Virus record (IMG/VR): IMGVR_UViG_2534681774_000027 | Span: 1-5,594 of that record | Direction: 5' to 3' (one strand) | DNA length: 5,594 nucleotides | Source of the DNA: a virus | Lineage: Duplodnaviria > Heunggongvirae > Uroviricota > Caudoviricetes | Shown: positions 1 through 5,594 of the stretch, one piece after another | Layout of the letters: the number at the start of each line of letters is the position of its first letter | Position numbering within the stretch: position 1 is the first letter of the stretch | The notes under the pieces: generated by a model | What the model saw: the letters and a program-made list of their open reading frames with translations, nothing else | Databases searched by the model: none | What the model was told of the DNA's origin: nothing | Translations under genes and position numbers: made by a program

Positions 1-444
1 AGAAGTCCGGGGATGTACAGCAGAACAGCGTCTGGCGGCAAGAAAGCCAGAGCTGCGCCACTGATGCAGTCACTGTATGACTGGATACAGACTCAGATGA
101 AAACACTGTCGCGTCACTCGGATACGGCAAAAGCGTTCGCATACCTGCTGAAACAGTGGGATGGCCTGAACGTGTACTGCAGTAATGGCTGGGTGGAAAT
201 CGACAACAACATCGCAGAGAACGCCTTACGGGGAGTGGCCGTAGGCCGGAAAAACTGGCTGTTCGCGGGTTCCGACAGCGGTGGCGAACATGCGGCGGTG
301 TTGTACTCGCTGATCGGCACATGCCGTCTGAACAATGTGGAACCAGAAAAATGGCTGCGTTACGTCATTGAGCATATCCAGGATTGGCCGGCAAACCGGG
401 TACGCGATCTGTTGCCCTGGAAAGTTGATCTGACCTCTCAGTAA
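1..444 (+). CDS. IS66-family transposase, C-terminal fragment (5' end lies outside the window)
   Basis: Reading frame is open from base 1 with no upstream stop; stop at 442-444. Translation (…[51 protein letters not shown]…LLPWKV) matches the conserved C-terminus of IS66-family transposases as I remember it. Only about 147 codons are present, so the gene is 5'-truncated by the window edge. Confidence 0.8.
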
Positions 445-474
445 ATATCAATACGGTTCTGGCGAGCCGCTTAC
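1..474 (+). mobile_element. Right-hand part of an IS66-family insertion sequence; terminus inferred near 474
   Basis: Transposase C-terminus ends at 444. Bases 461-474 (ggcgagccgcttac) read inward from the end as GTAAGCGGCTCGCC, which resembles the GTAAGCG-type terminal inverted repeat I recall for IS66-family elements. The exact boundary is inferred, not verified against the left end. Confidence 0.45.
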
Positions 475-530
475 CATCGATCTGTTATGCCTATTACTTA
501 TGAGTGGTGTTACCCTCATTTGTGAGGGTG

Positions 531-567
531 ACAAAAAGAAAACCCGCAGTTTTTACGCTGCGGGTTT
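531..567 (-). terminator. Rho-independent terminator downstream of the zinc-ribbon/TM2 gene
   Basis: Perfect 10-bp stem aaacccgcag (540-549) / ctgcgggttt (558-567) with an 8-nt loop. On the minus strand it is followed by TCTTTTTGT (complement of 531-539). It lies about 25 nt past the stop of the 593-889 gene. Confidence 0.55.
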
Positions 568-592
568 GTCATTCTGATTCGCCCACTAGGCA

Positions 593-889
593 TTAGCCAT
601 ATTTGCGGGCAAAGTCTTCATCAGAGGTGCATAGATAGATAAAAAACTCAATAAATGCCACGATTGCCGGAATGAATGTCCAGCAAAAAATAAGGTAAAG
701 GAATCCTTGCCCCACTTTACCTAAATAAAATTTGTGTGCACCAAGACCACCTAAAAAGAAAGCCAGTAGTGCGGCTGTCATTCTGCTTTTTGAACTTGCT
801 GTTCTTTGAGGTGCTCCACAATTGGGGCAGGATGTGGCATCTTTATGTATTTCCTTGCCGCATCCGCGACAAAATACCATTTCACTCAT
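593..889 (-). CDS. Small membrane protein with N-terminal zinc ribbon and C-terminal TM2 domain (98 aa), function unknown
   Basis: ORF with an AGGAA Shine-Dalgarno 6 nt upstream of the ATG at 889. N-terminus carries CxxC…CxxC (CRGCGKEI…CPNCG); C-terminus has the TM2 signature LLAFFLGGLGAHKFYLGKVGQGFLYL and two hydrophobic helices. Composition is visibly AT-rich compared with the phage genes. Confidence 0.8.
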   Translation of the reverse strand: MSEMVFCRGCGKEIHKDATSCPNCGAPQRTASSKSRMTAALLAFFLGGLGAHKFYLGKVGQGFLYLIFCWTFIPAIVAFIEFFIYLCTSDEDFARKYG

Positions 890-902
890 AAAGAGTTCCT
901 TT

Positions 903-960
903 CAAATTTAAATAAGCGTTAAACCCACCACTCTTACTGGTGGGCCTCAATTTAAATTTG
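903..960. repeat. Nested palindrome: 11-bp perfect inverted repeat flanking a 7-bp-stem hairpin
   Basis: caaatttaaat (903-913) and atttaaatttg (950-960) are exact reverse complements. Between them, cccacca (924-930) / tggtggg (938-944) form a stem with a 7-nt loop. On the minus strand the hairpin is followed by a U-rich stretch (TTTAACGCTTATTTAAATTT), so it could terminate the hok-like transcript and/or act as an operator for the TM2 gene. Confidence 0.35.
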
Positions 961-993
961 GGTGCCACTTCGACCATACCCTGGCAACCGATT

Positions 994-1015
994 GACGGGG
1001 GATTGCTCCCCCGTC
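994..1015 (-). other. GC-rich stem-loop just 3' of the hok-like ORF (possible mRNA 3' structure)
   Basis: gacggggga (994-1002) / tcccccgtc (1007-1015) form a perfect 9-bp stem with a 4-nt loop, beginning about 10 nt past the hok-like stop codon on the minus strand. Hok mRNAs are known to carry stable 3' structures. Confidence 0.3.
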
Positions 1016-1024
1016 GCGGTTTCC

Positions 1025-1165
1025 TTACTGCTTACACTGTAAGAACGCCGCAAACTCCGCTCCCCAGAAGCTCATCCGTATTTCGCACAGCGAACCATGC
1101 AGCATCCAGATGATGAGGATTGCCGTCACGCAGAACGTGATGGCCGTAAGCGATTTTTGCGACAT
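1025..1165 (-). CDS. hok: Hok/Gef-family type I toxin (46 aa), absent from the supplied ORF track
   Basis: Hand translation of the minus strand gives MSQKSLTAITFCVTAILIIWMLHGSLCEIRMSFWGAEFAAFLQCKQ with stop TAA at 1027-1025. AAGGAG Shine-Dalgarno lies 8 nt upstream of the ATG (1165-1163). One hydrophobic helix followed by the SLCEIR motif and a C-terminal AAFLxCK segment, closely resembling Hok-family proteins as I recall them (e.g. …DSLCELHIK…AAFLACK…). Confidence 0.7.
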   Translation of the reverse strand: MSQKSLTAITFCVTAILIIWMLHGSLCEIRMSFWGAEFAAFLQCKQ

Positions 1166-1295
1166 AGCACTTGCTCCTTTTCCGGAGAGGCGCTAACCTT
1201 TCACTTGTCAAGGTAATGCGGTTAGGGCCTCGGTTAAACAGAAATGTTTTCCGGGGCCTTTCCACATCCGGCCTTCGGGTATTCCCTCCGACCAT
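1032..1295 (-). CDS. mok: mok-like overlapping reading frame (translational coupling frame for hok); start uncertain
   Basis: ORF in a different frame that overlaps the whole hok-like ORF and stops 7 nt before the hok stop, which is the arrangement known for mok/hok. The ATG at 1295 has no clear Shine-Dalgarno; an in-frame GTG a few codons downstream is preceded by GAAGG and may be the true start. The protein has no recognisable domain, as expected for Mok. Confidence 0.35.
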   Translation of the reverse strand: MVGGNTRRPDVERPRKTFLFNRGPNRITLTSERLAPLRKRSKCYVAKIAYGHHVLRDGNPHHLDAAWFAVRNTDELLGSGVCGVLTV

Positions 1296-1355
1296 CAGCC
1301 GAAAGGCACCCGCGCGTAATCTATCGCTTTTTTGTTACTCCGGCAATTCTGCCTG

Positions 1356-1616
1356 TTAATTCTGAGATAAAGGCAAGCTCATCTGATTGTTTCCCCTGTG
1401 TGAAGCTGGCAGCTCATGCCACGGGATACCTTCTGAAGAGTGAACGCCGGAGGCATGTTTCGATGTGAATTTATGGAAAGCTTCCAGTGTTGAGAAGCAT
1501 ACGCCGCATTCCAGATTGTTACACTGGTAATACTTTTGCCGCACGGTGTTTGAATCATTTTCCGGACGACTGGTGCGGATACGGGCAGATGCGCCACAAA
1601 GCGGACAACGGAACAT
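1356..1616 (-). CDS. ogr: Ogr/Delta-family zinc-finger late-gene transcriptional activator
   Basis: MFRCPLCGASARIRTSR…YYQCNNLECGVCF carries the CX2C-X22-CX4C zinc finger and aligns with P2 Ogr as I remember it (MFHCPLCQHAAHARTSR…). GGAGG Shine-Dalgarno 5 nt upstream of the ATG. It sits immediately downstream of gpD on the same strand, as in P2. At 86 aa it is longer than the 72-aa P2 Ogr. Confidence 0.85.
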   Translation of the reverse strand: MFRCPLCGASARIRTSRPENDSNTVRQKYYQCNNLECGVCFSTLEAFHKFTSKHASGVHSSEGIPWHELPASHRGNNQMSLPLSQN

Positions 1617-1644
1617 AGCGACCTCCCTTAACGTGGTGCTGTCG

Positions 1645-2772
1645 CTATTCTAAGTTGCTCACTCTGTTTCCGCTATCCATTCCGGGATTTTTTGCTTCAA
1701 GCTCAAGCTGAGTGGTAAAGCCGCTGTTATCAATGGTGTGCCCGGCTTTTGCAATAATCCAGTCCTGATTATCAATCTCGCTTTTAAATCCTGTTACCGT
1801 GCCATGCATTTCGGGGTAGAGTTCTGCGCGTCCACGTGCCAGCGTGATGGAGAATGATGCGGCTCCGCGTTGTAGTTGTTGCCACTTTGCCGCCGCTGCG
1901 CGTCTTGCTGCCTGCTCGTTCTGATAAGTCTTGCGTAACACAAACACATTGCCTTCCGCGCCTTCCATATAATCACCTTCACGGCTGCTGCTTTTCTCTT
2001 TTTTCGGTTTTGGCGGTTTGCGGCGTTTCACGCTGACTTTTTTCTTTTTCCCGTAATTAAGATCAAGCCAGTAAGCGCGTACCCCCGTATACGCCTCGCG
2101 GTCAGCAATGCGGAACTGATGGCGATCGCCGCTGCTGCGTGTGATGGCGAACGATGGCAACGGCTGGCCCTGTGCGTTCACGCCACCGCCGGGCATGATG
2201 AATAACAGATTACCGCTTTTTACCGTGGTGATTGCGCCCAGCATTTCCGCCATGCGCGTAAGGAAGGACATGTCGCTTTCTTCGGTCTGGTCGGCGTGGT
2301 CGATTTCGATATGCATCAGCATTTCGCTGATTTGCGGTTTCAGACCGTACCGATGAGCGATGGCGGATACCACACGCTCAACGGTCACATCATGCCAGGA
2401 CACCTCACGTTTAACGTTAAATTCATCCCGAAAATCTGCGCTTCTGGCTGAAACAGTCAGCCTGTCCGGCGGTCCTTCGTGTGCGATTTCATCGACAATG
2501 TAAGAGCCTTTTTCTGTCAGCGGTTCGCCTTTCCAGCCAATGAGAACCGTCAGGCGCGCGCCCCGTGGCGGTAGCTGCAACTGACCATCCGCATCATCCA
2601 GCGTGATGGTGAGCTGGTCCGCCTCAAATCCCCGGTTGTCGGTCAGTGACAGGCTCATCAGGCGCTCTGCCACGCCTGACAGCGTTTTACCCTCCGCGAG
2701 AATATCAAAAATCCGGCATTTTTCACGGGGGTCTGTGCTCTGACTGAGCAATTGCATGGTGGTGTCGGTCAT
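1645..2772 (-). CDS. D: P2 gpD-like tail protein (late control gene D family)
   Basis: Translation contains LSLTDNRGFEADQLTITLDDADGQL…, the lysine-rich KKKKVSVKRRKPPKPKKEK segment, and a C-terminus …GFTTQLELE…, all matching P2 gpD as I recall it. Start placed at the ATG at 2772 because of a strong GGAGGG Shine-Dalgarno 5 nt upstream; the track's ATG at 2793 is in frame but lacks one. Confidence 0.88.
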   Translation of the reverse strand: MTDTTMQLLSQSTDPREKCRIFDILAEGKTLSGVAERLMSLSLTDNRGFEADQLTITLDDADGQLQLPPRGARLTVLIGWKGEPLTEKGSYIVDEIAHEGPPDRLTVSARSADFRDEFNVKREVSWHDVTVERVVSAIAHRYGLKPQISEMLMHIEIDHADQTEESDMSFLTRMAEMLGAITTVKSGNLLFIMPGGGVNAQGQPLPSFAITRSSGDRHQFRIADREAYTGVRAYWLDLNYGKKKKVSVKRRKPPKPKKEKSSSREGDYMEGAEGNVFVLRKTYQNEQAARRAAAAKWQQLQRGAASFSITLARGRAELYPEMHGTVTGFKSEIDNQDWIIAKAGHTIDNSGFTTQLELEAKNPGMDSGNRVSNLE

Positions 2773-2928
2773 CTTTCCCTCCCTGTGCGGCATGGTCGCA
2801 TGTGCGTGCGGAGGGGGTTACTGCTTTTTGTTGTCGCCGGGTCGGGAGAACGGCGCAGGGGTGAGATTACGCGCGTGGTGGGTGATGATTGTTGCCGAAT
2901 CATTTAACGGATACAAGGGGCTGAAGCT
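2773..2928. promoter_or_regulatory. Divergent intergenic region between gpD (minus) and FI (plus); presumed late promoter(s) and possible rearrangement junction
   Basis: 156 bp of non-coding sequence between two divergently oriented late genes. Contains an imperfect Ogr-box-like element TGT-N12-AGA (2832-2849; consensus is TGT-N12-ACA) and a Shine-Dalgarno for FI. No -10/-35 elements could be assigned with confidence. Confidence 0.35.
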
Positions 2929-4113
2929 ATGAGTGAAACTCGTTTTCATGGTGCCCGTGTTACGGAAAATACCGACCTGGTAACAGCGATTAACGATGTT
3001 GATTCCAGCGTTATCGGTATCGTGGCAACGGCGGATGATGCGGACGCGAAGCTGTTCCCGCTGAACAAGCCCACACTGCTGACCCGCGTCAATGACGTGC
3101 TGGGAAAATGCGGAACAACGGGGACGCTTTATCGTGCGCTTAAGGCCATCGCAGACCAGGTGAGCACAAAGGTGATCGTCGTTCGCGTGGCTGAACACAA
3201 AGAAGAAGACGGAAAGACGCAGGATCAACTGGTTATCGGTGGTTCTGAGGATGACGGCAGCTATACGGGGATGTATGCGCTGCTTGTTGCAGAGCAGGAT
3301 GAAAGCATCGGATACCGTCCGCGTATTCTGGCCGCGCCGGAGCTGGACACGGAGGCGGTGACAAAATCCCTGTGCGTGATTGCGGGTAAACTGCGCGCGT
3401 TTGTGTATGCCTCATGTCACGGCTGTAACACGATGGCTGAGGCGATTACCTACCGCCAGAAATTCAACGAACGTGAGGTGATGCTCTTATGGCCGGACTT
3501 CATCGCCTACAACCCGAAAAGTGGCAAAAACGAAACGTTCCCCGCGCCTGCCTATGCGTGCGGCCTTCGTGCGTACATTGACCATGAGCAGGGATGGCAC
3601 AAATCACTGTCCAACGTTCCGGTTAAAAATGTGCTGGGGATGTCGAGGCATGTGTTCTGGTCGTTGCAGGCCGAAGACAGCGATGCCAACAGCCTCAACA
3701 ACAAAGAAATCACGACCATTATTCGTCGCAACGGGTTCCGCTTCTGGGGCAACCGCACACCGGAAACGAACGCCTACATCTTTGAGGTGTATACCCGAAC
3801 CGCACAGGTGCTGGCTGATTCAATTGCAGAAGCGCAGTTTGAAACCATCGACAGTCCACTGACGCCTGCGAACGTGAAGGATGTTATCAGTGCCATCAGG
3901 GCAAAACTGGATTCACTGGTTACTGCCGGGAAACTGATTGGCGCGGAGTGCTGGTATGACGTGGTGGATAACAGCACCATGGATTTACGTCAGGGACGTG
4001 TGCGTATTCGCTATAAATATACGCCCGTTCCGCCACTGGAAGACATGGAGCTTTACCAGACGTTTACTGATGAATACTTTGAACCCGCATTTGCGGTGCT
4101 GGGAGGTGCCTGA
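2929..4113 (+). CDS. FI: Contractile tail sheath protein (P2 gpFI family), 394 aa
   Basis: Length and translation (…VIGIVATADDADAKLFPLNKPTLLTRVNDVL…GTLYRALKAIADQ…) match P2 FI sheath protein (about 396 aa) as I remember it. The stop overlaps the FII start in a TGATG junction, indicating translational coupling. Confidence 0.93.
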   Translation: MSETRFHGARVTENTDLVTAINDVDSSVIGIVATADDADAKLFPLNKPTLLTRVNDVLGKCGTTGTLYRALKAIADQVSTKVIVVRVAEHKEEDGKTQDQLVIGGSEDDGSYTGMYALLVAEQDESIGYRPRILAAPELDTEAVTKSLCVIAGKLRAFVYASCHGCNTMAEAITYRQKFNEREVMLLWPDFIAYNPKSGKNETFPAPAYACGLRAYIDHEQGWHKSLSNVPVKNVLGMSRHVFWSLQAEDSDANSLNNKEITTIIRRNGFRFWGNRTPETNAYIFEVYTRTAQVLADSIAEAQFETIDSPLTPANVKDVISAIRAKLDSLVTAGKLIGAECWYDVVDNSTMDLRQGRVRIRYKYTPVPPLEDMELYQTFTDEYFEPAFAVLGGA

Positions 4114-4625
4114 TGGCTGTGCCAAAACATCTTCGCTTTTTTACGCTGTTTGTGGATGGTGAAAACGAAGTGGGTAAGGTGACGTCCGTCACTCTGCCCA
4201 AACTGACGCGCAAAACCGACAGCTACCGGGGGGGCGGCATGATGGGTGCGGTAAGTATTGATCTCGGTCTGGACGACTCCGCGCTTGATGCGAGCTTTGT
4301 CATGGGGGGCGCAGTTCGTGAGCTGTTCCTTAAGTATGGCGGCACGATTGACGGCACGCTGCTGCGTTTTGCGGGTGAATACTACACCGATGCAGAAAGC
4401 GACCTGTATGAAGTCGAAATGCGCGGACGTGTGACGGAAATTGATATGTGGGAAGCCAAACAGGGCGAAGCCACATCACACACTTACGCCATTAAAAACA
4501 CCTACTACAAGCTGAGTGTTAACGATCGCCCGTTGTGGGAGATTGACCTGCTGAACTTCATTTACCGGAAGGACGGCAAGGACATTGTGCCCGATCGCAT
4601 CCGTTCCGCGCTCGGGCTTGGCTGA
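4113..4625 (+). CDS. FII: Tail tube protein (P2 gpFII family), 170 aa
   Basis: Translation (…VTLPKLTRKTDSYRGGGMMGAVSIDLGLDD…LRFAGEY…EAKQGEATSHTY…) matches P2 FII (about 172 aa) as I remember it. Position directly after the sheath gene is canonical. Confidence 0.93.
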   Translation: MAVPKHLRFFTLFVDGENEVGKVTSVTLPKLTRKTDSYRGGGMMGAVSIDLGLDDSALDASFVMGGAVRELFLKYGGTIDGTLLRFAGEYYTDAESDLYEVEMRGRVTEIDMWEAKQGEATSHTYAIKNTYYKLSVNDRPLWEIDLLNFIYRKDGKDIVPDRIRSALGLG

Positions 4626-4679
4626 TAAGTAATATGCAGGCGGCGCAGTGCGTCGCCTCTGACTGAAAGGAGTTTCCTG

Positions 4680-5045
4680 ATGAAAGAGACGAAAAACATC
4701 GATACCGAAAACACGGTCGTTGCTGACACTGTGAAAGAAACCAGTGAGCGTGGCATAAAACTTACCCAACCAATTGAGCGAGGCGGCGAAAAAATCACGT
4801 ATGTGGAGATCACCGGAGCTATTGAGCAGGCTGGATCTCTGCGAGATTTGTCGCTGTCTGATGTGCTGAATCTGAAAGCGGAATCTATGTTTACGCTGCT
4901 GTCACGCGTGACATCACCGCGACTGGATGAAGTGACGATCAAAAAAATGGCATCCCGTGACTTTATTCAGTTATGTGTGGTTGCCGTAAATTTTTTGAGC
5001 GGTGCGGACTCTGGCGGGAAGAACGAACAGGCGACGGAAGCCTGA
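4680..5045 (+). CDS. E: Tail assembly chaperone gpE (zero-frame product)
   Basis: Strong AAAGGAG Shine-Dalgarno upstream of the ATG. Acidic small protein located between the tube and tape-measure genes, and it contains the P2-type slippery heptamer T_TTT_TTG in frame. Confidence 0.8.
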   Translation: MKETKNIDTENTVVADTVKETSERGIKLTQPIERGGEKITYVEITGAIEQAGSLRDLSLSDVLNLKAESMFTLLSRVTSPRLDEVTIKKMASRDFIQLCVVAVNFLSGADSGGKNEQATEA

Positions 5046-5209
5046 TCACGGTTGTGTGCTTTGAGCACATAGAAGACTTTGTGGCAGATATTGCCGTTAT
5101 TTTTAACTGGTCGCCCGCCGAAATCTTCATGATGACGCCCGGCGAAGTGGTTAGCTGGCGTGAGCGGGCGGCACTTCGCAGCGGGAATGCAGACAATGAA
5201 GACTCTTGA
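4680..5209 (+). CDS. E+E': gpE+E' fusion produced by programmed -1 ribosomal frameshift
   Basis: Slippery heptamer T_TTT_TTG at 4991-4997 in the E frame. The -1 frame is open from there to the TGA at 5207-5209 (…FFERCGLWREERTGDGSLITVV…), overlapping the start of T by 14 nt. This is the organisation described for P2 E/E' and is analogous to lambda G/GT. Confidence 0.7.
4991..4997 (+). other. Programmed -1 frameshift slippery site (TTTTTTG)
   Basis: Heptamer X_XXY_YYZ = T_TTT_TTG positioned in the gpE frame as AAT TTT TTG; the -1 frame continues open for about 70 codons. Confidence 0.7.
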
Positions 5210-5594
5210 TATCCGGGTCGCTTTCAGCGCCGTTGACAGGCTGACCCGGCCTGCCGAAAACGCCCGCCGCCTGATGGGGCAGTTTGGTGACTCCATCCAG
5301 CGAACGCAGGGGGCGATCAAAAATCTCGAGCGTCAGGCGCGTTCATTTGAGCGCGCCCGCGACGCTGTCAGTAAAGCGGATGCGGGTATCGTGAAAGCAC
5401 GACGCCAGCTTAACGCCCTTAATCAGTTACAACGCACGGGTACAGTGCTCAGCGAAAAGCAACAAAAGCTGATGCAGCAGTTAAGCACCCGGCTTGAACG
5501 CCTGAATGAATCGCGCACACGGGAAATTCAGAAAATGCGGGAGCTTGGCGGAGAGCTGAAACGCCACGGCATTTCCCTGACAGGCCGCGATAGC
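5196..5594 (+). CDS. T: Tail tape-measure protein gpT, N-terminal part (3' end lies outside the window)
   Basis: ATG at 5196 opens a frame with no stop to the window end (133 codons): MKTLDIRVAFSAVDRLTRPAENARRLMGQFGDSIQRTQGAIKNLERQAR…. This is alpha-helical and Q/R/E/L-rich, typical of tape-measure N-termini, and sits in the canonical position after E/E'. It is absent from the ORF track because it has no stop in the window. Confidence 0.8.
   Translation, partial: MKTLDIRVAFSAVDRLTRPAENARRLMGQFGDSIQRTQGAIKNLERQARSFERARDAVSKADAGIVKARRQLNALNQLQRTGTVLSEKQQKLMQQLSTRLERLNESRTREIQKMRELGGELKRHGISLTGRDS

What the first reader, a model, noticed from the sequence alone, without database searches (positions are those of the whole stretch)
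1356..5594. Non-canonical late-gene synteny: D-ogr is divergent from FI-FII-E-E'-T and gpU is missing
In P2, 186 and related phages the order is FI-FII-E-E'-T-U-D-ogr, all on one strand. Here D and ogr are on the minus strand while FI, FII, E and T are on the plus strand, separated only by a 156-bp intergenic region with no gpU remnant. That implies an inversion or recombination breakpoint in 2773-2928 (for example between two P2-like prophages), a defective or rearranged prophage, or a lineage with a genuinely different late-operon layout. D keeps its own strong Shine-Dalgarno and ogr is intact, so the module may still be expressed.
Basis: partly seen in the sequence, partly recalled or inferred. 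Interest (0 to 1): 0.7.

Follow-up and report, generated by a model that had tools for sequence, protein, structure and literature searches.

The report
Normal P88-type P2-like prophage tail module
The back-to-back arrangement of the tail genes D-ogr and FI-FII-E-T is the normal, inherited gene order of a large, well-sampled branch of P2-like phages (phage P88 and relatives, present in about a fifth of complete E. coli genomes), not a rearrangement, and the supposedly missing gene U simply lies just beyond the end of the window.

Summary
The observed layout is real. ogr (1356-1616) and D (1645-2772) are on the minus strand. FI, FII, E/E' and the start of T are on the plus strand. The gap between D and FI is 156 bp and holds no U remnant.

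The layout is not a breakpoint, a defect or an artefact. The stretch 475-5592 is collinear at 98-99% identity in 1062 of 5426 complete E. coli genomes. It is 94-98% identical in the plaque-forming phages P88 and Citrobacter phiSM (genus Xuanwuvirus). In these relatives U follows T directly, so it lies just past the window end.

I classified 160 loci that encode a D homologue. All 128 with D at least 60% identical to the window's show U-T-FII-FI on one strand and D-ogr on the other, across more than 20 genera of Enterobacterales. Salmonella phage SEN5 has the same order. The 31 loci with P2-like D, plus phiCTX and a Mannheimia phage, keep the canonical single-strand order. FI-to-U is therefore an ancient, fixed inversion.

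Inferred wiring: one TGT-N12-ACA-type Ogr box (2832-2849) lies 34 nt from a -10-like hexamer on each side. This matches the shared site of P2's divergent pP/pO promoters and would drive pD and pF.

Verdict: ordinary and already known. Low interest.

The parts
1356..1616 (-). ogr: Ogr/Delta-type zinc-finger late-gene activator, 86 aa, with the motif CX2C-X24-CX4C
   Evidence: Pfam PF04606 at E 5e-14. It is 98% identical to the P88 region 34476-34733 and 36-42% identical to P2 Ogr.
1647..1652 (-). Candidate -10 element (TAGAAT) of an ogr-own promoter; it overlaps the D stop codon
   Evidence: A TAnAAT block is the only conserved island between the D stop and the ogr Shine-Dalgarno sequence in an alignment of 36 non-redundant relatives. 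By analogy, P2 has an annotated ogr promoter after D. Inferred, not shown.
1645..2772 (-). gene D (tail baseplate hub / late control D), 375 aa, intact
   Evidence: Pfam PF05954. It is 49-51% identical to P2 gpD over the full length and 96% identical to P88 D.
2792..2797 (-). Predicted -10 hexamer of pD (GACCAT on the minus strand, preceded by TGn); predicted transcription start near 2785
   Evidence: It lies exactly 34 nt from the dyad. An nAnnnT hexamer sits at 34+/-1 nt on this side in 33 of 36 non-redundant relatives. Inferred.
2832..2849 (.). Predicted Ogr box TGTCGCCGGGTCGGGAGA (TGT-N12-AGA), central in the D/FI gap and shared by pD and pF
   Evidence: A dyad occupies the same position throughout the clade. 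It is an exact TGT-N12-ACA in 24 of 36 non-redundant intergenic sequences, against a mean of 1.9 and a maximum of 6 in shuffles. The same TTTTGTTGT-N12-AGAAC motif occurs in the P88 P/O gap. The geometry equals that of P2 pF and P2 pP/pO, whose start sites are annotated in the P2 record.
2884..2889 (+). Predicted -10 hexamer of pF (GATGAT); predicted transcription start near 2896
   Evidence: It lies exactly 34 nt from the dyad. GATTAT, GATGAT or AATGAT is conserved here across the clade. P2 pF has the same spacing to its mapped start site. Inferred.
2929..4113 (+). FI, tail sheath, 394 aa
   Evidence: Pfam PF04984, PF22671 and PF17482. It is 46% identical to P2 FI and 99.5% identical to P88.
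4113..4625 (+). FII, tail tube, 170 aa
   Evidence: Pfam PF04985 at E 8e-45. It is 42% identical to P2 FII.
4680..5045 (+). E, tail assembly chaperone, 121 aa
   Evidence: It is 33% identical to P2 gpE by tblastn and 97% identical to P88.
4991..4997 (+). Slippery heptamer T_TTT_TTG for the -1 frameshift that produces E+E'
   Evidence: Read directly from the sequence. The shifted frame gives a 176-aa fusion whose tail matches Pfam Phage_P2_GpE. The P2 record annotates a -1 frameshift at the equivalent place.
4997..5209 (+). E' reading frame (the -1 frame extension of E)
   Evidence: Pfam PF06528 at E 1.7e-12 on the ORF in this frame. It is 48% identical to the P2 E' region.
5196..5594 (+). T, tape measure protein: the first 133 codons, running off the window
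   Evidence: It is 98.5% identical to residues 1-133 of P88 T and contains no stop codon.

Best explanation
The window is the right-hand end of an ordinary P88-type (genus Xuanwuvirus, family Peduoviridae) P2-like prophage.

In this branch of P2-like phages the block FI-FII-E-E'-T-U was inverted long ago relative to the other late genes, and the inversion became fixed. The native order is therefore ...J I H G | U T E' E FII FI (opposite strand) | D ogr. U is present, directly after T, just outside the window.

The inversion cut D off from the F operon. D, with ogr behind it, is now read from its own promoter, pD, which faces away from pF.

Inferred mechanism. The 156-bp gap holds a single palindromic Ogr box (2832-2849) of the TGT-N12-ACA class. 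A -10-like hexamer lies 34 nt away on each side, which puts the box at about -55 of both promoters. One bound Ogr activator would therefore switch on pF (FI to U) and pD (D, ogr) together, as at the divergent pP/pO pair of P2. ogr probably also has its own Ogr-independent promoter at the end of D (TAGAAT, 1652-1647), which would start the circuit.

What is shown and what is inferred. Shown: gene identities, the layout and its distribution, the presence of U in relatives, and the conservation and geometry of the dyad and hexamers. Inferred: transcription start sites, Ogr binding, and shared use of one box by both promoters.
For: Layout and identity
- Pfam and tblastn identify every gene.

Distribution
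- Stretch 475-5592 lies in one collinear piece at 98-99% identity in 1062 of 5426 complete E. coli genomes.
- It is 94-98% identical in P88, PhiR44_2, 500465-2, Chuche, phiSM and P884B11.
- The full P88 map and the E. coli 12A map show invertase / U T E' E FII FI / D / ogr / hok. U is confirmed by Pfam.

Survey of 160 D-encoding loci (80 from one-genome-per-species contigs, 80 from IMG/VR)
- 128 loci are P88-type. All have D at least 60% identical to the window's.
- 31 are P2-type and 1 is other.
- SEN5 (genus Senquatrovirus) has the same layout.
- The outgroups phiCTX and Mannheimia phiMhaA1 have the canonical order.

Viability
- P88 is mitomycin-inducible and forms plaques (PMC5285337).
- phiSM is released spontaneously, forms plaques and lysogenises (PMC6456863).

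Promoter model
- The dyad is an exact match in 24 of 36 non-redundant gaps, against 1.9 expected.
- Hexamers lie at 34+/-1 nt on both sides in 33 of 36.
- In the P88 late region only the P/O gap and the FI/D gap have this two-sided geometry.
- In the P2 record a single activator site (3057-3087) lies 55.5 nt from both the pP start (3016) and the pO start (3127). P2 pF has the same spacing from dyad to -10.
- The TGT-N12-ACA consensus and the Ogr dependence of P2 late promoters are as cited in PMC3931495.
Against: - In the window the dyad has one mismatch to the consensus (AGA instead of ACA).
- No transcription start site or Ogr binding has been measured for any P88-type phage that I could find.
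- The predicted pD leader is only about 13 nt, so the Shine-Dalgarno sequence would sit at the very 5' end of the mRNA.
- One subgroup (L159, L029, L032 and L160, from Providencia-type loci) showed no recognisable dyad in my scan.
- The window ends inside T, so the presence of U and the intactness of this particular prophage are inferred from relatives. An IS66-family element abuts the prophage's accessory end at 474.
Confidence: 0.9

Rival explanations
1. A one-off inversion or recombination between two P2-like prophages, or a defective rearranged prophage, with a breakpoint in 2773-2928 and loss of U.
For: The order differs from P2, 186 and phiCTX. An IS66-family element lies at the left end of the window, so this copy has suffered at least one insertion nearby.
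Against: - The same junction occurs in 1062 complete E. coli genomes and in 128 loci from more than 20 genera, including viable phages (PMC5285337).
- The gap is not a scar. It carries a conserved, symmetric promoter-like architecture.
- U is present after T in all relatives with enough flank.
Confidence: 0.02
2. An assembly artefact that joins two contigs at the D/FI gap.
For: None found.
Against: The junction is identical in over a thousand independently assembled complete genomes and in phage genomes sequenced from virions.
Confidence: 0.01
3. The FI-to-U block is a switchable segment, flipped by the serine DNA invertase that lies next to U in P88-type phages. The window would then show one of two states.
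For: A Hin/Gin-type invertase (Pfam Resolvase plus HTH_7) sits directly beside U in P88 and E. coli 12A.
Against: - All 128 P88-type loci show the same orientation relative to D and to J/I.
- SEN5 has the layout but no invertase between G and U.
- No inverted repeats flank the block in the closest relative.
- In the flipped state D and FI would each lose the shared promoter region.
- The invertase is adequately explained by the adjacent invertible tail-fibre segment (G / G' H').
Confidence: 0.03
4. The layout is a lineage trait, but pD and pF are not driven from one shared Ogr box. D-ogr might instead use an Ogr-independent promoter, or each promoter might have its own activator contacts.
For: - The window's dyad is imperfect (TGT-N12-AGA).
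- The pD side carries an extended -10 (TGn) that could give activator-independent transcription.
- ogr must be made before late promoters can fire.
- One subgroup lacks a recognisable dyad.
Against: - Only one dyad is present per gap, and it is central.
- The spacing of 34 nt to a hexamer on both sides is conserved from 60% to 98% D identity.
- It reproduces the P2 pP/pO geometry with mapped start sites.
Confidence: 0.2

Closest known systems
Escherichia phage P88 and the genus Xuanwuvirus (Peduoviridae), including PhiR44_2, 500465-2, Chuche, P884B11 and Citrobacter phage phiSM
   Same: Nucleotide identity is 94-98% across 960-5592. Gene order and strands are identical: U T E' E FII FI / D / ogr / hok.
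   Different: - The window has an IS66-family element at its left end, where relatives carry other cargo. E. coli 12A has a com/methyltransferase module there.
- P88's D differs at the C-terminus by a frameshift.
- ogr is not annotated in the P88 RefSeq record, but it is present.
Salmonella phage SEN5 / SEN4 (genus Senquatrovirus)
   Same: It has the same inverted FI-to-U block and a divergent D-ogr. A central dyad occurs in the D/FI gap of loci at this divergence level.
   Different: D is only 64% identical. There is no invertase between G and U.
Bacteriophage P2 (and 186, phiCTX): the F operon FI-FII-E-E'-T-U-D followed by ogr
   Same: - Every gene is homologous (33-49% amino-acid identity).
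- The E/E' slippery site TTTTTTG is the same.
- ogr follows D.
- The late-promoter dyad class and the dyad-to-(-10) spacing are the same.
   Different: In P2 all of these genes are on one strand, D is the last gene of the pF operon, and there is no pD.
P2 divergent late promoters pP / pO, which share one activator site
   Same: One palindromic TGT-N12-ACA-type site lies midway between two diverging late operons, about 55 nt from each start. A -10-like hexamer lies 34-35 nt from the dyad on both sides.
   Different: The site drives the packaging and head operons, not tail genes. For pD/pF the start sites and the Ogr dependence are predictions only.

Membership tests
P2-like (Peduoviridae) tail / late-gene module | Homologues of FI (sheath), FII (tube), E/E', T, D and an Ogr/Delta zinc-finger activator | tested here: met
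   Pfam hits for Ogr_Delta, Phage_GPD, Phage_sheath_1, Phage_tube and Phage_P2_GpE. tblastn against P2 gives 33-49% identity.
P2-like (Peduoviridae) tail / late-gene module | E+E' made by a -1 frameshift at a TTTTTTG slippery site | tested here: met
   T_TTT_TTG lies at 4991-4997 in the E frame, and the -1 frame carries the GpE domain. The frameshift itself has not been shown experimentally.
P2-like (Peduoviridae) tail / late-gene module | gpU present | not testable with these tools
   The window ends inside T. U (Pfam PF06995) follows T in E. coli 12A and in P88, and in every surveyed locus with enough flank.
Canonical P2 F-operon synteny (FI-FII-E-E'-T-U-D-ogr on one strand) | D directly downstream of U on the same strand as FI | tested here: not met
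   D and ogr are on the minus strand, while FI to T are on the plus strand. The same holds in 128 related loci.
Xuanwuvirus (P88-like phages) | High nucleotide identity to P88 and the same gene order | tested here: met
   97.9% identity to P88 over the aligned 83% of the window, with the same order and strands. Genome-wide identity, which is the basis of genus demarcation, cannot be computed from a 5.6-kb window.
Ogr/Delta-dependent late promoter (P2 type) | TGT-N12-ACA dyad upstream of a weak -10, with no -35 | tested here: inconclusive
   The window has TGT-N12-AGA (one mismatch) at 2832-2849. The exact dyad is present at the same place in 24 of 36 non-redundant relatives. The consensus is as cited in PMC3931495.
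Ogr/Delta-dependent late promoter (P2 type) | Dyad centred at about -55 from the transcription start | not testable with these tools
   Start sites are not mapped. The -10-like hexamers 34 nt from the dyad predict about -55/-56 for both pD and pF, as in P2 pF and pP/pO.
Ogr/Delta-dependent late promoter (P2 type) | Transcription depends on the Ogr protein | not testable with these tools
   This needs reporter or in vitro transcription assays.
Ogr/Delta zinc-finger activators | Four-cysteine motif CX2C-X22-CX4C | tested here: met
   All four cysteines are present, as CX2C-X24-CX4C with a spacer two residues longer. The Pfam Ogr_Delta score is 52.4 bits against a cutoff of 26.3.

The most novel reading that the evidence does not exclude
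After the ancient inversion that separated D from the F operon, this phage branch evolved, or recruited, a single central Ogr box. That box co-activates two diverging tail operons (pD and pF) from about -55 of each. It would be a second, independent instance of the bidirectional pP/pO design, and it would place ogr under direct positive autoregulation through pD. I found no paper describing this wiring for P88-type phages.
Probability: 0.6. Interest if true: 0.3.

Novelty: already known. Interest (0 to 1): 0.12.

Why it matters
It matters mainly as a caution for annotation. P2 and 186 are not the only native gene order among P2-like phages. The divergent FI/D layout should not be scored as evidence of a degraded or chimeric prophage, and a gene absent from a short window is not a missing gene.

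A smaller positive point concerns regulation. The conserved, symmetric promoter region in the D/FI gap gives a clear, testable prediction of how late-gene control was rewired after the inversion.

Tried and rejected
- An exact TGT-N12-ACA search in the window found only two matches inside coding regions, at chance level. The real candidate needed one mismatch and the comparative footprint.
- The generic sigma-70 and terminator scan of 850-3000 found nothing above the shuffle expectation in the D/FI gap.
- The Rfam scan of the whole window gave no hit at gathering thresholds, so there is no curated Sok/hok RNA match.
- The inverted-repeat search around the FI-U block in the closest genome found only short, chance-level pairs and none at the block's ends. 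No trace of the inversion mechanism remains.
- The candidate ogr promoter GTAACA-18-GATAAT inside D (1797-1768) was set aside. It lies in conserved coding sequence, and the better-conserved TAnAAT block sits next to ogr.
- The papers on P88, phiSM, SEN4/5 and the Burkholderia P2-like phages were searched for any mention of the inversion. None was found.
- The first full MAFFT alignment of the gaps was too gappy to read. Anchoring on the dyad worked.
Full report
**What is in the window**

ORF listing, Pfam scans and tblastn give the following genes.

| Feature | Coordinates | Strand | Note |
|---|---|---|---|
| IS66-family transposase, 3' end | 13-444 | + | the element ends at 474 with ...GAGCCGCTTAC |
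| TM2-domain protein with N-terminal zinc ribbon | 593-889 | - | |
| Hok/Gef toxin gene | 1025-1165 | - | |
| ogr | 1356-1616 | - | Ogr_Delta, E 5e-14 |
| D | 1645-2772 | - | Phage_GPD; the ATG at 2772 follows a GGGAGGG Shine-Dalgarno sequence |
| FI (sheath) | 2929-4113 | + | |
| FII (tube) | 4113-4625 | + | |
| E | 4680-5045 | + | |
| E' frame | to 5209 | + | reached by a -1 shift at T_TTT_TTG, 4991-4997 |
| T, first 133 codons | 5196-5594 | + | open to the window end |

The proteins are 33-49% identical to their P2 counterparts. There is also no trace of gpU anywhere in the window.

**Is the arrangement unusual?**

No.
- Megablast against all complete E. coli genomes finds 475-5592 as a single collinear piece at 98-99% identity in 1062 of 5426 genomes.
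- Against GenBank phages, the same stretch is 94-98% identical to Escherichia phage P88, PhiR44_2, 500465-2, Chuche and Xuanwuvirus P884B11, and to Citrobacter phage phiSM.
- The annotated P88 genome reads... V W J I H G (+) | alternative tail-fibre segment and a serine invertase | U T E' E FII FI (-) | D (+), then ogr (unannotated in the RefSeq record but present) and hok.
- The prophage in E. coli O111:H2 12A, 99.2% identical to the window, reads the same way.
- In both, the gene after T is a clear Phage_P2_GpU (E 1.5e-38 and 5e-39).

So U is not missing. It lies about 2.4 kb past the right end of the window. Because J, I, H and G share D's strand, the inverted part is the FI-to-U block, not D-ogr.

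P88 was induced with mitomycin C, forms plaques and has been engineered through its lysogen (PMC5285337). phiSM is released spontaneously, forms plaques and lysogenises E. coli K-12 (PMC6456863). The layout is therefore compatible with a working tail.

**How deep is the trait?**

I aligned the window's D with P2 D (A1). I used that alignment to pull 80 loci from a collection with one genome per species and 80 from IMG/VR. I then placed D, FI, FII, T, U, ogr, J, I, G, invertase and integrase homologues on each locus by tblastn.
- 128 of the 160 loci show U- T- FII- FI- | D+ ogr+. These are exactly the loci whose D is at least 60% identical to the window's.
- They come from more than 20 genera of Enterobacterales. 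These include Salmonella, Serratia, Erwinia, Pantoea, Klebsiella, Kosakonia, Enterobacter, Citrobacter, Pectobacterium, Brenneria, Edwardsiella, Hafnia, Yersinia, Morganella, Providencia, Xenorhabdus and Photorhabdus.
- 31 loci, whose D is closer to P2's, have the canonical FI+ FII+ T+ U+ D+ ogr+. One locus is unclassified.
- Salmonella phage SEN5 (genus Senquatrovirus, D 64% identical) has the inverted layout in its deposited annotation.
- The more distant phiCTX and Mannheimia phiMhaA1 have the canonical order.

The simplest reading is one old inversion of FI-to-U, fixed in a large branch of Peduoviridae.

No inverted repeats remain at the ends of the block. No locus shows the opposite orientation, and SEN5 lacks the invertase. 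A switchable segment is therefore unlikely.

**How it most likely works**

The inversion removes D from the end of the pF operon, so D (and ogr behind it, only 28 nt away) needs a promoter in the gap.

When the D/FI gaps of the relatives are anchored on a TGT-N12-ACA-type dyad, they show a strikingly regular structure.
- There is one dyad, placed centrally.
- An nAnnnT hexamer lies 34 (+/-1) nt away on each side: AATCAT or GACCAT on the D strand, often preceded by TGn, and GATTAT or GATGAT on the FI strand.
- Among 36 non-redundant gaps, 24 have an exact dyad, against a mean of 1.9 and a maximum of 6 in shuffles. 33 have the hexamers on both sides.

In the window the elements are:

| Element | Coordinates | Sequence |
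|---|---|---|
| pD -10 hexamer | 2797-2792, minus strand | GACCAT |
| Dyad | 2832-2849 | TGTCGCCGGGTCGGGAGA |
| pF -10 hexamer | 2884-2889, plus strand | GATGAT |

These predict transcription starts near 2785 (-) and 2896 (+), with the dyad centre at about -55 of each.

This is the geometry of P2 late promoters. In the P2 record the pF dyad starts at 17561 and the mapped start is 17626-17628. The single activator site 3057-3087 lies 55.5 nt from both the pP start (3016) and the pO start (3127). The TGT-N12-ACA consensus and the Ogr dependence are as summarised in PMC3931495.

Within P88's own late region, only the P/O gap and the FI/D gap have the two-sided arrangement, and both share the motif TTTTGTTGT-N12-AGAAC.

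I therefore propose that one Ogr box serves pD and pF together, a second copy of the pP/pO design. Transcription start sites, Ogr binding and shared use of the box are inferences; nothing here measures them. Weak points are:
- the one-base mismatch (AGA) in the window's lineage;
- the short predicted pD leader of about 13 nt;
- a Providencia-type subgroup in which I could not recognise a dyad.

**ogr**

ogr must be made before Ogr-dependent promoters fire. Between the D stop and the ogr Shine-Dalgarno sequence, the only conserved island in 36 relatives is a TAnAAT block. In the window this is TAGAAT at 1652-1647 on the minus strand, overlapping the D stop codon. By analogy with the annotated P2 ogr promoter, this is a plausible Ogr-independent promoter. 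pD read-through would then add positive feedback. This is also an inference.

**Comparison with known systems, and novelty**

The window is a member of the P88-type (Xuanwuvirus) group by sequence and by layout. It fails only the test of canonical P2 synteny, and that synteny is not a defining feature of the family.

The arrangement is on record in reference genomes of at least two ICTV genera and in a fifth of complete E. coli genomes, so it is already known. I found no paper that comments on the inversion or on the pD/pF promoter design. That gives the promoter prediction modest interest for phage regulation, but it is an extension of a well-understood scheme.

**Verdict**

- This is an ordinary feature of low interest.

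Noticed in passing
window 1-474: This is the 3' end of an IS66-family element (Pfam DDE_Tnp_IS66 plus IS66_C). It ends in ...GAGCCGCTTAC at 474 and abuts the prophage's accessory region. In the closest genome (E. coli 12A) a Com-family regulator and a DNA methyltransferase (a com/mom-like pair) lie at that position instead (L002 18978-19926).
   Followed up: partly
window 593-889 (-), hairpin about 538-567: A small protein with an N-terminal zinc ribbon and a TM2 membrane domain sits in the prophage cargo region. A GC-rich hairpin (aaaacccgcag...ctgcgggttt) follows its stop codon. It is conserved in the E. coli prophages but is not part of the region aligned with P88.
   Followed up: no
window 1025-1165 (-), overlapping ORF 1032-1295 (-), hairpin 993-1016: A Hok/Gef toxin gene (Pfam E 4e-7) has an overlapping upstream ORF in the position of mok. 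It lies between ogr and the prophage end, as in P88 (annotated there as MokW-like). The Rfam scan gave no curated hok/Sok RNA match at gathering score.
   Followed up: partly
L002 21185-22038 (E. coli 12A) and L001 34397-34444 (P88): The window's D is intact at 375 aa. In the 99.2%-identical E. coli 12A prophage, D is split into an 801-nt CDS plus a pseudogene fragment. P88's D changes frame near the C-terminus. Individual copies therefore differ in whether D is intact.
   Followed up: no
window 1356-1616: This Ogr has a CX2C-X24-CX4C motif, two residues longer than the CX2C-X22-CX4C quoted for P2. It is 86 aa long against 72 aa for P2, with an extra C-terminal tail.
   Followed up: no
L005 (NZ_JBQPOM010000071.1, 'Vagococcus sp. 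WN89Y'): A 226-kb contig labelled as Vagococcus, a Firmicute, carries a P88-type module with D 96% identical to the window's. This looks like enterobacterial contamination or mislabelling of that assembly.
   Followed up: no
L034 (Klebsiella sp. WOUb02) and L105 (IMG/VR): In these two loci the distance between the matched parts of FI and D is 846 and 496 bp, against the usual 140-260 bp. The FI (and in L034 also D) matches begin well inside the proteins, so this may be an insertion or damaged gene starts.
   Followed up: no
L001 24860-27564; L002 28054-30087: In P88-type prophages a serine invertase (Resolvase plus HTH_7) and a pair of opposed tail-fibre and assembly gene copies lie directly beside U. 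This is a Mu G-segment-like host-range switch located next to the fixed FI-U inversion.
   Followed up: partly
PMC6456863 (literature): The phiSM paper describes the virion as having a long non-contractile tail (siphovirus morphology). Yet the phiSM genome is 95% identical to this window and encodes a sheath and tube of the contractile P2 type. That discrepancy may be worth a second look.
   Followed up: no
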